Below are positions 21,001 through 27,000 of a stretch of 35,773 bases of DNA, piece after piece. The stretch lies in UHGV virus genome UHGV-0313710. One strand, 5' to 3'. This DNA comes from a virus. How positions within the stretch are numbered: the stretch's first letter is position 1; the number at the start of each line of letters is the position of its first letter. A program made the position numbers.

Positions 21001-24000
21001 TTTATCTTGTCACTTTTCTCAATTGTGTCTCTGCATATGCTTCTTCCTGCCAGCACTTTGTAACCAGTTTATCAATGATATCTGCATATCCTTTGTACCA
21101 CTGATAATCCGTCAGGGCAGGTACCAGCTTCTGGACATGATGCCGCGCCAGTGTGGTTGGTAAACGGCTAAACCGGTTACCATTGCAACGCCCACAAATC
21201 TTATAAACAGGCGTACCATGAAGCCGGGTTCTTTTTTCATCCAGGACAATACCTTTACCCTTACACCCTCTGCACGCTGTGCTGACTTCTCCCTTACCAT
21301 GACAATGCTGACATAGTTCCTTCACCCACTCTTCCTTGATAACAGATTCCCAGCTTCTGGAGTGTTTCACCACTTCGCGCAATACATTATGAAATCCAGT
21401 ACCAGCACAATGCTCACAGCGAGCCTTACTTGCCGCAGACCTGGAATAATCAGCAAAGGCAAAATTCACAAGGTAAGGGATGATCTGTAACCGGGTTTCT
21501 TCACTCAATTTGTTCAATGTCGGGTTATCCAGTGCCATCGCGTAATTGAGCAGACCTTCAATCGCAAACTGAGGATCCTGAACACCAACTTTTGCCAGGA
21601 ATAAGGCAAACCCAAGCGGTGCTTTCGACTGCACCATCCCCTGCGCAGCCATTACATCCGTAATTGTTAAACCACCAGAGCCTGTCGCCGGTGCGTCATC
21701 GCTCAATTTTGGAGATTTTGGGGAGTAATATTTCGGTAAGGCTTCAAGGTTCATGCTCGTTCTCCACTTACGCCAGCACGCCAATTGCCAGCGCGCGATC
21801 GATAAAACGAAATATCAGCTCCAGCTGGGAGCCATACTTCTCTTCAAATGCCACGGTATCCGCATGCAGCTCGTCGTGATGCTTTCTGCACAAAGGCAAC
21901 ACAAAGAGGTCATGCGCTTTTGTACCCATCCCGCCCTGACCGTGGCCTATCAGGTGGTGGGGATCATCAGCAGGCTTTCCACAACATGCACACGGCTGCG
22001 TCTTAACCCAGCGCGTGTACTTTTCGTTAACCCAGCGGCGACGTTTTGGGCGTAACATAAAAGACTCCGGCGACTCCGGATCCACTTTCAGCGCCAGCAC
22101 CTTTTTCGCTTTATCCTGGATGATGCTGGTGGCAGGAACCGAAGGCACCAGGTCACTTTCCCGGGTGACAGACGGCACAACAGGCTTCGGTAATCTCAGT
22201 GCCTTACGGGCTGCACTTTCCGGTAAGGCATCCGCCAGGTCATTACGAACCAGCCACCAGCACAGTTCCGGCATTGTCACAACGTGACTATCATCAAAAC
22301 CGAGATCCCGACGCACGACAGACAACACCCAGCGGGCACAGTTATCCGTTGCCATTGATTCCAGCCGTTCCGTGAATTGATCGCGCAGCTGGTTATCGCA
22401 GTGCCAGCACAGACGGATTGCGCCCGGCGCGTGTCGCATTGTGGTCATGTTCTCGCTGTGCCAGTCGGAATGAGGCCACTGGCAGCCTTTTTCACGAAGT
22501 AACCAGCTTTCAAGACATTCCACCCCACCAGCACGACGGATCACTGCCTCATTGCGGAACACGGCCCGAACGGCAGGATCATCCGCCAGCGGTTGTGATG
22601 CCGCCGGAACGGCACCACTGGCGAAAGATGAATAACGTTCCGGCTCAGGCTCCAGCAGGACACGCCCCTGCATAAACAGGGGCATCAGCTCTGAACCTGG
22701 CCTGAACAATACGATCCCCATACGCGGGGCAATTTCAGGGGTCAGTAGTGCTCTCACGGTCACCTCAATGAACGGTATCGAGCAGCTTTAACAGCTCAGG
22801 GAATCGGGATTCGAAGAAATGCGGCTGCGTCTCGCGCGGATTTGCGGGACTGGTGATGTTCTTGCCGAACATGCAGCCTTTCGCTGTCAGCGACCAGAAT
22901 TTTTTGATGTTGTTAATCGCGGTACGGCTGTATCGTTCGCGCTGCTCGACGATCCCCAGCTTCACCATCTGGTGATATGCCTGATTAGCCGTCAGGCGGA
23001 TACCATACTGCTTCAGCAGTGCACTCAGTGACAGCGTGGGGCGGCTTGAGCCATCAGGCGCGTCAGCAGGAGCATCAATGGCATAGCGCGGTGCCAGATT
23101 CGGTAAGCCAACAGCCTCCTGGAGTTTCTGACAGGCCCCAAGCACTGAAGAGTTAGACAGGTTTAACTCCCTGCGCATAAAGTCCAGCAGAATCACACCA
23201 GCCTGCATCTTGTCAGCAGCCTGCCCGGATAATTTTTCCGGTGCGCTGGTTACCATATCGAAAGTACGGATCACCTTCAGATGGAATGACGGGCTGATCC
23301 ACATTGCATAGGCATACACCAGTTCCTTGCAGACATACGTTCCCCGTTCATTTCCCCCATGAATCACACTCACCGGGTCAACACCCAAATTCTGGGTGTT
23401 GGTCAATTCATGAACAAGCTCAACAGTTTGTTGGCTGGAAAGAAACTTTCCTGGCTCCTTGGTTCTGGCATTTGCACCAGATGCTACTGCTGCGCGATGC
23501 AGATCGTTCAGGCTGTAACGTCCATAAGCATCACGACGAACTTCAATACCATCAATGACCATCAGATTATTCATACTTCGTTTCTCCTCTTAATCAGGCG
23601 GCTGCACCCGCCGTTTTCTCGTACTTACTGATAGTGATCTCGACCTTCCCTTTCGGGATAACCGGTCCCCACTCCACCAGCATTCTTTTCACCTGTCTGT
23701 CGTCTTCCCACACACCCGCGTGGGTCAGGGCGTCAAACAGCGCCTTGTTATAGTTGTCCAGATCACGGATCCGGTTATCCGGCGGAAACAACACGATCTC
23801 CACTGAAGCAGGTGCCGACGTTGGTTTCGGCAGACGACGTAACTGCTCAACTATTGCTGCGCACGCCGCGCTCTGAAATTTTCGCCCCGCCTCGCTTATC
23901 AGGCTCTTACCAGCAAATGCCCCTTTGTTGGGGTGTCGCCAGTACGTGTTCACACTGGGCGGGAAAGGAAGGATCAACTTCATACTTTCAAGCCCCTCTC

Positions 24001-27000
24001 ATGTAACCAGTGGGCTGCACGCAACCTGGCGTTCTCCTCACCGGCAAGCAGTGCGCGGATGATACCGACCGCTTCGCTGTCGTCGTCCTTCACTGCGGTA
24101 TGAAGCGTGATCCCCCGGGCCACGCCACGCTTTATCGTGATGACGCCTTTTTTCTCCAGTGCGCGAAGATGCTCTACCGCTGCATTCACTGAACGGTATC
24201 CCAGCATGGTTGCCACCTCCTGATTGGTTGGCGGAAAGCCACGCTCTTGCTGGTAAGAAATCAGCATATCCAGCACCTGCTGCTGGCATTGAGTTAACGT
24301 CGTCATGCCGCCATCTCCCTGACAAGTTTTTCTGCCTGCTGGCGAATCTGCGCCAGAAACGCCTCACCACATGCCTCAAGTTCATCGCGCCCGATGTAGC
24401 TGATTGCCGGTCCCTTCCAGGTCTTGTCGAAAACAGCAATAGCACCAGCGAAGAAAGCGCCTGTCGGCACCTGCTTCTCATCCTTCGGGATAAACCAGGC
24501 AGGCAGTTCAAAACCAATACGCCCGCGAATAAAAGCAATATGGTCTGCATCTTCCGGCCACCAAACTTCGCTGGTGGCAGCTTTGATCAGGAAAACATAG
24601 CGCCCGCCCTTATCACGCATGGCACTGGCATGCTTCATGATGTAACGCATGCCGGTGATGTATTGCCCCTCATGCTGACTGGCGCGGCTGTATGGGGGAT
24701 TACCAAAGGCAGCACCTTTAAGCTCCGCAAGACGTTCTGACCAGTCATGCGCCAGCGCATTGTCTTCCGCAGTGTAATAAGCGGCACATTTGGCGTTATC
24801 ACCATCAGTGAACAGATCCAGAACAAACGGGCCAAACAGGGTGTTAATTCCCCAGAAAATGTTATCCGGCGTGCGCCACTGATCGCCCACTTCCTTCAGT
24901 TCATGGGCTGGTTTGTTCCGCAGTTCTACCAGCGCCTGGCAATATTTATTACTCATTAAGCCCCCACGTAAAAAGCATCCGCAATGTCTCCGGAAGTACA
25001 GCCCGGATGGGCTTCAATGAATTTCTGAACGTCATTTAACAGACTCATGATCACCCCCTGAATCCTGCCGGGATCTGGCTGTAGTCCACGTTGTCGTAAC
25101 TGGCTTTGAAGTACGGGTCTTCACGTTTTTCTGTGTGCGTGCTGACGGACGGCGATAAGCGCAGGGAAAGCTCATCCCATTTTTCCCGCAACTTCGACGG
25201 GCTGAGCACGTTACGGCACCAGAATGGATCGCGGCTGACGCGGCTGTACATCTCGCAGATTTGTTTGTGAGTACGACCATCCTGCACACACATCAGGCGA
25301 ATTTCGTTTGCCCAGGCTGTCCAGTTCGGTTCTTTGGGACGAACCACCTCGCCGTCACATTCGGCGGCCTGCTCGTACAGGGCGATGATTTTTTTCCAGA
25401 GCCACTGTGCGCAGGTCAAATCATCCTGCGTTCCCCACTGGCGCTTTTTATGGCTGAATACAACCGCATCAGGATGGCGAGTTAAAAACTCCTGTTCAGC
25501 CGTTTGCGTGTCCGGTTGCGAAGCGTCCGGACGAGAAGAGGTTTTATTCTCTGTAGTAATCTCTGTTGTATTCTCTGTAAGATCATTGGGCCATTTTGAC
25601 CCGATGACAGCGTGTCGTTTTGAACCAATGGATCGTGTCATTTTGCGCCCATCCATCAGGTAACTTTGACCCGATGGAGAAGTGCATTTTGACCTGATGG
25701 ATTCGTTCACTTTGACCTCTTCTAAAAGCTCACTTTCATAGTTGATCGTGTAGAAGTTGGTCATGTCACGCTTCGATTTATTGAGTTGCTCGCGACGCAA
25801 AACCCCAAGTGATTTCAGGCTTGCAAATGTGCGTTTCAGAGTGGACTCTGACCAGAACGGAAACTGCTCCAGCCACTGTTCTGTCGTGTTATAAACCCAG
25901 CGAATTCCGCCATGCTCAGTGCCGGAATTCGTTTCATTCAGCCAGTAATGAAGCTGCTGCAACACAATTGCCTCATTCAGACCAATACGGCATGCAAGAT
26001 CACGATTTATCACAATGGGCTGGGATGTCATTAACAGGCTCATGACCGACCTCTATTTCCCTGAATTTACGACGAAACTGTTCGAGCGGGCTGAAGCACT
26101 CATGTTCATAGCCTTCACGGAGGTAGATAACCCGTTGTGTTTCCGGCTCCCAACGAATGACTCTGACGGGCACTCCGTAGTGATCTTTGAACCAGCGGTT
26201 AACTTGTCGCAAAGGACTGTCTCCTTCTGCCGGTTGAAATCCCCCACAGCCCACTCTGCAAAGCTGTGGGTTACAATTTCCCTGTCACCTGGTACATTCA
26301 CTGCATAGCAATACTCCACCTTCGCTTTTCCACCCGGTACAGGAAGCGCAATCAGTTGCGAGCGACGGTAGTGTGTTGTTAAACTGTTCATGCGTTAGTT
26401 TCTCCACAACCAGAAGCAATCGACGCCACGACGCCCGGAGCTGCACACTCGCGGGCGTTACTCTTTTCCGGCGCACAAAAAACACGAAATAACAGTGTTA
26501 AATGCTCCTGCCACTTCGCCATTACTTGGTAGCTGTTCTCTTCGATTTGCTCACGCTCAGCTTGGTCAATAACTCCATCAGCAGTTGCCTTGCGTAAGTA
26601 CTGGGAATGCTTGCCAATCCATTCTATTGACTCCATCAGCCGCTGATTAATGTCACCATTGTCAATGTCATCAATGACCACCAGCGGCACAAACACCCCA
26701 TTACTACGACGGGCTATTGCATCCGTTACATGCCTGGTACCACTGGCATCCTGTAAAACCATGGCCCACTCAAGTGGAAAAATTTGATCCCCACCGCTAC
26801 GCAGTCTGTTATGCAATTGATCTTTTGCTGGGGTGATATCATCAGATTTATACAAACCAAGAATTTCTGCTGCTTCCTCATAGCCATGAGGTAAATCAGC
26901 AATCGTTCTTCGTATTGCTGCCACCAGCCATGCTGGTTGCTTATCAACTTTCCATTCAGGTTCTTTACCCACGTTTAAGCCCTCATATCTGTGGTTTCTG

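What the first reader, a model, noticed from the sequence alone, without database searches (positions are those of the whole stretch)
23980..24306. LexA DNA-binding-domain-only protein in the NinR-like region
The 108-aa protein resembles the LexA N-terminal winged helix but has no S24 peptidase domain. Such a protein could bind SOS boxes without being cleavable, which would alter SOS or prophage induction dynamics. It is translationally coupled to RusA and the Dam-family MTase.
Basis: partly seen in the sequence, partly recalled or inferred. Interest (0 to 1): 0.45.

Follow-up and report, generated by a model that had tools for sequence, protein, structure and literature searches.

The report
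Prophage mini-LexA lacking the protease domain
A very common E. coli prophage carries a small, strongly conserved gene for a copy of the DNA-binding head of the SOS repressor LexA with the self-cleaving domain replaced by a short helical tail; it is already annotated in databases, its function has not been tested, and it most likely acts as a damage-insensitive regulator at LexA-type DNA sites.

Summary
Window 23980..24306 (- strand) is a real 108-aa gene. It has a full-length Pfam LexA_DNA_bind match (E 2.6e-19) and no S24 peptidase domain. It overlaps the Dam methylase stop and the RusA start by ATGA on each side. The AlphaFold model superposes on E. coli LexA bound to DNA (0.9 A over 68 columns, 50% identity). 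A conserved two-helix hairpin (residues 75-103) stands where LexA has its protease/dimerisation domain.

The gene is under strong purifying selection (dN/dS 0.02-0.10). It keeps its place in the nin region across Enterobacterales. At least 1668 of 5426 complete E. coli genomes carry it, as do phages SfV, SfII, cdtI, mEp460 and Stx2c phages. RefSeq already calls it 'LexA family transcriptional regulator' (PHROG 362). I found no functional study.

Four of LexA's five base-contacting residues are kept; Glu44 is never Glu in the family. The window holds one strong SOS box (19691-19710), at the start of a late-operon DNA methyltransferase.

SOS-box binding by a RecA-resistant mini-repressor is therefore plausible but unproven. 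The main rival is a regulator with its own operator, like the tectivirus GIL01 gp6. I rate it a new member of a known kind, of moderate interest.

The parts
23980..24306 (-). mini-LexA ORF, 108 aa plus stop (WP_000210187.1)
   Evidence: ORF list. Pfam LexA_DNA_bind E 2.6e-19. PHROG_362 full length, 199 bits. Identical RefSeq CDS. dN/dS 0.02-0.10.
24100..24306 (-). residues 1-69: LexA-type winged helix-turn-helix (H6-22, H28-35, recognition helix H40-52, wing strands 56-58 and 66-68)
   Evidence: AlphaFold2 model with pLDDT about 85-88 in this part. Foldseek hit to 3jso/1lea at rmsd 0.9-1.1 A and 50% identity. Identity to LexA is 11/16 in helix 3 but 7/22 in helix 1.
23983..24099 (-). residues 70-108: disordered linker (71-75) plus a conserved two-helix hairpin (H75-87, H93-103) in place of LexA's S24/dimerisation domain; proposed dimerisation module
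   Evidence: Model. Conserved down to about 40% identity, with L86, A93, R96, A97 and L101 invariant or nearly so. Dimerisation is inferred, not shown.
24303..24306 (-). ATGA overlap: Dam stop TGA and mini-LexA start ATG
   Evidence: Read directly from the sequence.
24315..24319 (-). GGGAG Shine-Dalgarno, 8 nt upstream of the ATG
   Evidence: Read directly from the sequence.
23980..23983 (-). ATGA overlap: mini-LexA stop TGA and RusA start ATG
   Evidence: Read directly from the sequence.
24303..24956 (-). upstream neighbour: phage N6-adenine methyltransferase (Dam family), 217 aa
   Evidence: Pfam Dam E 9.8e-46. TIGR01712 at 255 bits, above its cut-off.
23594..23983 (-). downstream neighbour: RusA Holliday-junction resolvase, 129 aa
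   Evidence: Pfam RusA E 1e-14. PHROG_34.
19691..19710 (.). only strong SOS (LexA) box in the window; reads TACTGTAAAAATAAACAGTG on the - strand and overlaps codons 3-9 of the 350-aa N6_N4 methyltransferase. Candidate cis target (hypothesis only)
   Evidence: 22.6 bits on an SOS-box matrix; the best of 200 shuffles scored 18.9. ACTGT...CAGT is invariant, wobble positions included, in six methylase homologues at 70-100% identity.

Best explanation
The gene encodes a 'mini-LexA'. It is the DNA-binding winged-helix head of LexA (residues 1-69), joined by a short flexible linker to a conserved two-helix hairpin. That hairpin stands in for LexA's protease/dimerisation domain.

The gene sits in the delayed-early (nin) operon of a lambdoid prophage, translationally coupled between a Dam methylase and RusA. 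It is therefore made once lytic development is under way (inferred from position).

It lacks Ser119/Lys156 and the catalytic core, so activated RecA cannot inactivate it the way it inactivates LexA. This follows from the absence of the domain.

My preferred mechanism is inferred, not shown. The hairpin pairs two copies, and the dimer binds CTGT-type palindromes, including SOS boxes. It then acts as a damage-insensitive repressor that re-occupies LexA sites after host LexA has been cleaved. Such sites exist in the phage, for example at the start of the late-operon methyltransferase, and possibly in the host SOS regulon.
For: Shown:
- LexA_DNA_bind full length, E 2.6e-19, with no S24 domain.
- Fold matches DNA-bound E. 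coli LexA at 0.9 A.
- Of the five LexA base-contacting residues S39, N41, A42, E44 and E45 (PMC3091678), four are kept here and in 124-139 of 141 aligned sequences for S39/N41/A42; E45 is E or D in 126.
- Identity to LexA is concentrated in the recognition helix (11/16, against 7/22 in helix 1).
- The tail is conserved down to about 40% identity and is predicted as a confident helical hairpin.
- Strong purifying selection.
- Fixed nin-region position in E. coli, Cronobacter and mEp390.

Circumstantial links to SOS:
- One 22.6-bit SOS box in this prophage, conserved at the DNA level.
- 31 of 40 IMG/VR loci chosen for that box carry the gene 3.6-6.1 kb upstream.
- In Klebsiella prophages the gene lies about 600 nt downstream of a 27-bit SOS box at a dinI promoter.
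- ACTGT-N8-ACAGT is one of about 14 perfect 5-bp-arm palindromes shared by three of four divergent lineages. Several of the others that I placed lie in homologous coding sequence or terminators; not all were checked.
Against: - Glu44, one of the five LexA contact residues, is never Glu in the family (V/A/T/N/F/L), so specificity may have shifted.
- Dimerisation through the hairpin is not demonstrated.
- About 35 of 80 loci with the gene, several of them truncated, and all three Cronobacter loci show no strong SOS box nearby.
- The methylase SOS box is kept in phages that appear to lack the gene (phiP27, phiNP and Providencia 117lys are absent from the hit summary; box shown). Host LexA is therefore its default ligand.
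- The co-occurrence can be explained by physical linkage alone.
- The one characterised analogue, GIL01 gp6, binds a non-SOS palindrome and activates transcription (PMC6182141).
Confidence: 0.42

Rival explanations
1. A dedicated phage transcription factor with its own operator, distinct from the SOS box, as with GIL01 gp6. On this reading it descends from LexA but has been retargeted, and it activates or represses a phage promoter to time lytic gene expression.
For: GIL01 gp6 is a LexA-head-only early protein. It binds GaCACAn-nTGTGaC at -43.5 of the late promoter and activates it (PMC6182141). Glu44 is lost family-wide and position 44 varies between subfamilies. Many loci with the gene have no SOS box nearby. 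BFVD holds many phage LexA-DBD-only proteins, tectiviral ones among them.
Against: The recognition helix is far closer to LexA than the rest of the domain is. No alternative non-coding palindrome shared across lineages stood out among those I placed, and no enrichment of CTGT/ACAG at other spacings was seen. This phage already has a Q antiterminator for late genes.
Confidence: 0.35
2. A DNA-metabolism accessory protein rather than a transcription factor. It would bind DNA to assist replication, recombination or methylation alongside its Dam and RusA neighbours.
For: It is embedded and translationally coupled between DNA-metabolism genes. There is a weak sub-threshold DnaD_N match (E 0.098). 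The nin regions of lambdoid phages encode other small DNA-binding proteins, such as NinH (PMC4118853).
Against: The Dam neighbour is absent in mEp390 and in the Klebsiella loci, yet the gene persists. The DnaD_N hit is far below its cut-off. Sequence-specific contact residues are conserved.
Confidence: 0.1
3. A decoy or pseudo-substrate. The tail (LLAGE at 86-90) would mimic LexA's cleavage-site region (VAAGE) and so titrate activated RecA or the LexA active site.
For: The HMMER alignment to LexA runs through the Ala84-Gly85 region, and A-G-E is identical.
Against: The Gly is not conserved in the family (N, K). The segment is predicted helical, not a strand-loop as in LexA. No RecA-binding core is present.
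Confidence: 0.05
4. A non-functional remnant of a captured lexA gene.
For: It is a truncated form of a host gene.
Against: dN/dS is 0.02-0.10. The family is conserved across genera, with an added conserved tail. Position is conserved and the gene is translationally coupled to its neighbours.
Confidence: 0.02

Closest known systems
E. coli LexA (SOS repressor), N-terminal domain; PDB 1lea, 3jso
   Same: Same winged-helix fold (rmsd 0.9 A). About 51% identity over residues 1-69. Recognition helix SxNAAxEHLxAL and wing motif RGI are kept, as are four of the five base-contacting residues.
   Different: No S24 protease/dimerisation domain and no Ser119/Lys156. Below the TIGR00498 cut-off. Glu44 replaced by Val. 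A two-helix hairpin replaces the C-terminal domain. Phage-encoded and placed in an early lytic operon.
Tectivirus GIL01 gp6 (phage-encoded truncated LexA homologue; PMC6182141)
   Same: [quoted passage not shown] Tectiviral LexA-DBD proteins are structural neighbours of the model.
   Different: gp6 has no reported C-terminal hairpin. It binds a non-SOS palindrome and activates the late promoter. It belongs to a Gram-positive tectivirus whose lysogeny depends on host LexA. The window's phage has its own cleavable cI and a Q antiterminator. Direct sequence comparison with gp6 was not done.
LexA 1-84 cleavage fragment (from my own knowledge: Little and co-workers; Neher et al. 2003, ClpXP degradation)
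   Same: A LexA head without the C-terminal domain, which retains some operator binding and repression.
   Different: The fragment is a short-lived breakdown product that the cell removes. This protein is a dedicated, conserved gene with an extra helical module.
PHROG_362 / RefSeq 'LexA family transcriptional regulator' (SfV Orf42, mEp390 gp43, cdtI, Stx2c phage homologues)
   Same: This is the same family. The match is full length (199 bits) and the protein is 95-100% identical in those phages.
   Different: None. These are annotations without tested function.

Membership tests
LexA repressor (TIGR00498 equivalog) | N-terminal LexA-type winged-helix DNA-binding domain | tested here: met
   PF01726 covers 1-65/65 at 69 bits. 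Foldseek hit to 3jso at rmsd 0.9 A.
LexA repressor (TIGR00498 equivalog) | C-terminal S24 peptidase/dimerisation domain with the Ser119-Lys156 dyad | tested here: not met
   No Peptidase_S24 hit. The protein ends at residue 108, and the TIGR00498 match covers only 1-91/203.
LexA repressor (TIGR00498 equivalog) | Score at or above the curated whole-protein cut-off | tested here: not met
   70.3 bits against a cut-off of 110.95.
LexA repressor (TIGR00498 equivalog) | Conserved Ala-Gly self-cleavage site | tested here: not met
   A88-G89 aligns to A84-G85. However, Gly is N or K in close relatives, and the segment is predicted helical.
LexA repressor (TIGR00498 equivalog) | Binds CTGT-N8-ACAG SOS boxes | not testable with these tools
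   Only indirect evidence: 4 of 5 contact residues are kept and Glu44 is lost.
Pfam PF01726 LexA_DNA_bind | Score above the gathering threshold over the whole domain | tested here: met
   69.2 bits against 23.7, covering 1-65/65.
PHROG_362 (phage 'transcriptional repressor') | Full-length profile match | tested here: met
   E 2.6e-59, covering 1-108 against 1-106/106.
GIL01 gp6-type phage LexA-head-only regulators | [quoted passage not shown] | tested here: met
   Tectiviral LexA-DBD proteins are among the BFVD structural hits.
GIL01 gp6-type phage LexA-head-only regulators | Encoded among the early genes of a temperate phage | tested here: met
   It lies between the replication genes and Q, on the early rightward operon. 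This is by position only; there are no expression data.
GIL01 gp6-type phage LexA-head-only regulators | Binds its own palindrome at the late promoter and activates transcription | not testable with these tools
   No candidate non-SOS palindrome was found.
GIL01 gp6-type phage LexA-head-only regulators | Direct sequence homology to gp6 | not tested

The most novel reading that the evidence does not exclude
Mini-LexA would be a RecA-proof 'SOS reset' factor. Once an induced lambdoid prophage commits to lysis, it would re-close LexA operators that DNA damage had opened. That would silence host SOS functions and LexA-controlled genes of rival prophages. It would also hold the phage's own SOS-boxed and probably toxic late methyltransferase in check until Q-driven late transcription. 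In Klebsiella prophages, where the gene follows an SOS-boxed dinI, it would give damage-induced negative feedback on SOS from within the lysogen.
Probability: 0.2. Interest if true: 0.65.

Novelty: new member of a known kind. Interest (0 to 1): 0.4.

Why it matters
The gene is in at least a third of complete E. coli genomes and in Stx2c, cdt and Shigella serotype-converting phages, yet I found no test of its function. If it does bind SOS boxes while being immune to RecA, it would be a phage tool for reshaping the host DNA-damage response. That response governs mutagenesis, toxin-phage induction and antibiotic tolerance. If instead it has its own operator, it would be the first lambdoid counterpart of the tectiviral gp6 regulator. 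Either outcome is cheap to test.

Tried and rejected
- Literature. All ten full-text searches (LexA-like/lambdoid, phage-encoded LexA, SfV/SfII, accession and product names, nin region/RusA/DUF968, Pfam id) found only catalogue mentions, such as 'Pham 237, pfam01726, 15 Stx phages' in PMC8136144, and no functional study. The LexA-DNA structure paper (PMC2921665) is not held, so contact residues are cited from PMC3091678.
- The prophage's own cI as a partner. It is HTH_3 + S24, not a LexA-type winged helix, so operator competition with cI is unlikely.
- Defence-system membership. PADLOC gave only a spurious winged-helix match.
- Other half-site spacings. CTGT/ACAG inverted repeats with 0-20 nt spacers show no enrichment.
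- Shared palindromes across four divergent lineages. The SOS box was one of about 14 shared palindromes; several of the others I placed fall in homologous coding sequence or terminators, and the rest were not checked.
- Co-occurrence of the gene with the methylase SOS box. It was 31 of 40 loci, but the two features are only 3.6-6 kb apart, so linkage cannot be excluded and I do not count it as functional evidence.
- The tail against the PDB and Pfam. The only hit was a non-significant resemblance (E 0.4) to the HOIL-1L LTM helical hairpin, itself a dimerising hairpin; I use it as an analogy at most.
- Cleavage-site mimicry by the tail. Rejected because the Gly is not conserved and the segment is predicted helical.
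- Homodimer modelling was not possible with the tools available.
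Full report
**1. The observation**

The ORF at 23980..24306 (- strand; ATG start, 108 aa) is real and at the stated coordinates. On the minus strand, its ATG overlaps the TGA of the upstream Dam-family methyltransferase gene (24303..24956) as ATGA. Its own TGA overlaps the ATG of rusA (23594..23983) in the same way. A GGGAG Shine-Dalgarno sits 8 nt upstream of the start.

Domain searches give the following:
- Pfam scores the protein as a complete LexA_DNA_bind domain (residues 1-65 on profile 1-65/65, 69.2 bits against a cut-off of 23.7, E 2.6e-19). No Peptidase_S24 match is found.
- NCBIfam's full-length LexA model matches only its first 91 of 203 positions. The score is 70 bits, against a cut-off of 111.
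- PHROG_362 ('transcriptional repressor') matches end to end.

**2. What the window is**

The segment is 100% identical to a lambdoid prophage in the chromosome of E. coli MS6198. RefSeq there annotates this gene as WP_000210187.1, 'LexA family transcriptional regulator'. The gene order is:

cI (HTH_3 + S24) / cro / YmfL-CII-like / replication / Dam / mini-LexA / RusA / KilA-N protein / DUF968-HNH / Q antiterminator / moron ORFs / N6_N4 methyltransferase / lysis / terminase and structural genes.

The gene is thus in a nin-type region, downstream of replication and upstream of Q.

A 1.7-kb query spanning Dam, mini-LexA, RusA and part of KilA-N matches 2704 of 5426 complete E. coli genomes. In 1668 of these, at least 80% of the query is covered. 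The protein is 95-100% identical in phages SfV, SfII, SfIV, cdtI, mEp460 and in Stx2c and some Stx2a phages.

**3. Structure**

An AlphaFold2 model built on 20 family sequences has mean pLDDT 81.7. It shows:
- helices 6-22, 28-35 and 40-52;
- a two-stranded wing (56-58 and 66-68);
- a disordered stretch, 71-75;
- two further helices, 75-87 and 93-103.

Foldseek against the PDB returns E. coli LexA first. The DNA complex 3jso aligns at rmsd 0.9 A over 68 columns with 50% identity. The NMR structure of the N-terminal domain, 1lea, follows.

The C-terminal hairpin has no counterpart in LexA. It is nevertheless conserved: L86, A93, R96, A97 and L101 are invariant among close relatives. The pattern persists in relatives only about 40% identical.

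The HMMER alignment to LexA continues into LexA's cleavage-site region, pairing 'LLAGE' here with 'VAAGE' there. This suggests descent from a lexA gene truncated just past the hinge. The Gly is not conserved in the family, and the segment is predicted helical. I therefore do not regard it as a cleavage site.

**4. The family**

A scan of all 1.84 billion cluster representatives finds 4626 proteins at E <= 0.001. Most are ordinary LexA or other LexA-domain proteins. A distinct set of proteins of about 105-135 aa aligns over the whole length, tail included.

A profile search places this set in Escherichia, Citrobacter, Salmonella, Hafnia, Cronobacter, Klebsiella, Enterobacter, Raoultella, Kosakonia and Atlantibacter.

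Context is conserved at 45-50% identity:
- In Cronobacter prophages the order is replication / PerC / Dam / mini-LexA / RusA / pRha-ANT antirepressor-like / DUF968 / Q.
- In mEp390 it is replication / mini-LexA / RusA / HNH(DUF968) / Q.
- In Klebsiella it is dinI / orf / mini-LexA / orf / DUF968 / lysis.

Across 84 distinct gene variants from IMG/VR loci, dN/dS against the window's copy is 0.02-0.10 at dS up to 0.25. This is a functional, selected gene.

**5. What it might bind**

The base-contacting residues of E. coli LexA are Ser39, Asn41, Ala42, Glu44 and Glu45, all in helix 3 (PMC3091678). I aligned 141 sequences: 140 database members plus this protein. The counts at those positions are:
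- S39: 139 of 141;
- N41: 139;
- A42: 124;
- E45: Glu in 91, Asp in 35;
- position 44: never Glu. It is V, A, T, N, F or L; this protein has Val.

The wing residues R64, G65 and I66 are essentially invariant. Identity to LexA is 11/16 in the recognition helix but 7/22 in helix 1. The DNA-facing surface has thus been preferentially kept.

This argues for CTGT-like half-sites. The family-wide loss of Glu44 leaves room for shifted or relaxed specificity.

**6. SOS boxes in cis**

It scores its own training sites at 12.5-27.1 bits.

The window has exactly one strong hit. It lies at 19691-19710 (TACTGTAAAAATAAACAGTG on the minus strand) and scores 22.6 bits. The best hit in 200 shuffles scored 18.9, and all other window hits are below 10.

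The box overlaps codons 3-9 of the 350-aa N6_N4 methyltransferase ORF downstream of Q. Six homologues, down to about 70% identity, come from E. coli, phiP27, Stx2a_14744, Citrobacter phiNP, Hafnia yong2 and Providencia 117lys. In all six, ACTGT...CAGT is invariant, wobble positions included. An Asn-to-Ser change (AAC to TCC) keeps the C-A-G. It is therefore a selected DNA site.

phiP27, phiNP and the Providencia phage do not appear among the tblastn hits for mini-LexA. The box thus does not depend on this gene, and host LexA is its obvious ligand.

Related loci add the following:
- About 45 of 80 IMG/VR loci with a near-identical mini-LexA gene have at least one strong SOS box within 10 kb. 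The box is either the methylase box or others.
- Conversely, 31 of 40 loci selected for the exact methylase box carry mini-LexA 3.6-6.1 kb upstream. At that distance, linkage can explain the association.
- In Klebsiella prophages a 27-bit box overlaps the -10 of a dinI promoter. Mini-LexA follows about 600 nt downstream in the same orientation, with no convincing terminator between them. The gene may be SOS-inducible there.
- Cronobacter loci have no box.
- ACTGT-N8-ACAGT is among roughly 14 perfect 5-bp-arm palindromes shared by at least three of four divergent lineages. Several of the others that I placed lie in homologous coding sequence or terminators; I did not check them all.

**7. Precedent**

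The one characterised phage protein of this architecture that I found is GIL01 gp6. It is an early gene product and a truncated LexA homologue, 44% identical to the host LexA head. It binds its own palindrome centred at -43.5 of the late promoter P3 and activates it, while host LexA plus gp7 repress the same promoter (PMC6182141).

BFVD shows that LexA-head-only proteins of 65-150 aa are widespread in phages, including tectiviruses and mycobacteriophages. The kind is therefore known. This enterobacterial nin-region family, with its helical tail, is catalogued (PHROG 362; 'Pham 237' in PMC8136144). As far as ten full-text searches could show, it has not been studied functionally.

**8. Mechanism and its rivals**

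Shown:
- the protein is a LexA-type DNA-binding domain;
- it has no protease domain, so RecA cannot trigger self-cleavage;
- it has a conserved extra hairpin;
- it occupies a conserved early-operon position.

Inferred:
- expression as a delayed-early gene;
- dimerisation through the hairpin;
- binding to CTGT-type palindromes.

My best reading, at about 0.42, is a RecA-proof mini-repressor that re-occupies LexA operators during lytic growth.

From my own knowledge, the natural LexA 1-84 fragment retains some repressor activity and has to be removed by ClpXP. That makes residual repression by a head-only LexA credible.

The main rival, at about 0.35, is a gp6-like factor with its own operator. 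Minor rivals are a DNA-metabolism accessory, a RecA/LexA decoy and a dead remnant. The last is excluded by the selection data.

**9. Verdict**

The gene is already annotated and belongs to a known kind, so its distance from known systems is small. It is, however, very common, strongly conserved, untested and cheaply testable. I score interest at 0.4.

Noticed in passing
window 19691-19710: A strong SOS (LexA) box, TACTGTAAAAATAAACAGTG on the - strand, scoring 22.6 bits. It overlaps codons 3-9 of the 350-aa beta-class N6_N4 DNA methyltransferase (18666..19718, -) in the late operon. It is conserved at the DNA level, wobble positions included, in homologues from E. coli, Citrobacter, Hafnia and Providencia phages. 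No consensus sigma-70 promoter lies beside it. In size, class and prophage location the enzyme resembles the normally silent non-specific adenine methylases M.EcoGI/GII (349 aa; PMC5778455), but I did not compare sequences.
   Followed up: partly
window ~19722-19855 (- strand): A non-coding element just upstream of the methyltransferase ATG that is better conserved than the flanking coding DNA across six phages of four genera. RNAalifold predicts a long hairpin (GGGCGGCUGG...CCAGCC) plus a second hairpin, at -38 kcal/mol with 36 pairs, 3 of them showing compensatory changes. There is no Rfam match at the gathering threshold or at E<=1.
   Followed up: partly
L015:5735, L006:5546, L020:7095 (related IMG/VR prophages; not in the window): A near-perfect SOS box (TACTGTTTTTATATACAGTA, up to 27.1 bits) lies inside the coding sequence of a 230-aa cI-like repressor (HTH + S24). 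It sits in the hinge between the two domains, 3.5-4.5 kb upstream of the mini-LexA gene.
   Followed up: no
L046:10765: In one related prophage a 22-bit SOS box lies about 100 nt upstream of a KilA-N-domain gene directly after rusA. This suggests a LexA-controlled antirepressor-like gene at the position where the window has its KilA-N gene (22765..23574) without a box.
   Followed up: no
L202-L204:7385-8393 (Klebsiella prophages): A 27-bit SOS box overlaps the -10 of a dinI promoter. It is followed in the same orientation by dinI, a 96-aa ORF and the mini-LexA homologue (130 aa, with an N-terminal extension). mEp390 also carries SOS-boxed dinI and a UmuD-like gene. SOS-modulating genes appear to cluster with this family.
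   Followed up: partly
window ~20880-20905 and 20199-20218 (- strand): Two nearly identical terminator hairpins (AACCCGCC(G/A)CTGAGCGGGTTTTTT) flank a 141-aa ORF (20296..20721, -) between Q and the methyltransferase. The ORF's N-terminus (MKKVLIAAIGFCLVGC) looks like a lipoprotein signal peptide; this is my reading and I ran no predictor. The layout looks like a moron cassette inserted by duplication of tR'.
   Followed up: no
window 15268-15289: An AT-rich 7-bp inverted repeat, CTGTAAT-N8-ATTACAG, in the intergenic region upstream of the small terminase (DUF1441) gene. Its function is unknown and it does not have SOS-box spacing.
   Followed up: no
window 34368-35356 (- strand): At the prophage end, RefSeq annotates a Panacea-domain protein (190 aa) next to a 139-aa ORF. 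This may be a toxin-antitoxin-type pair. I did not examine it.
   Followed up: no
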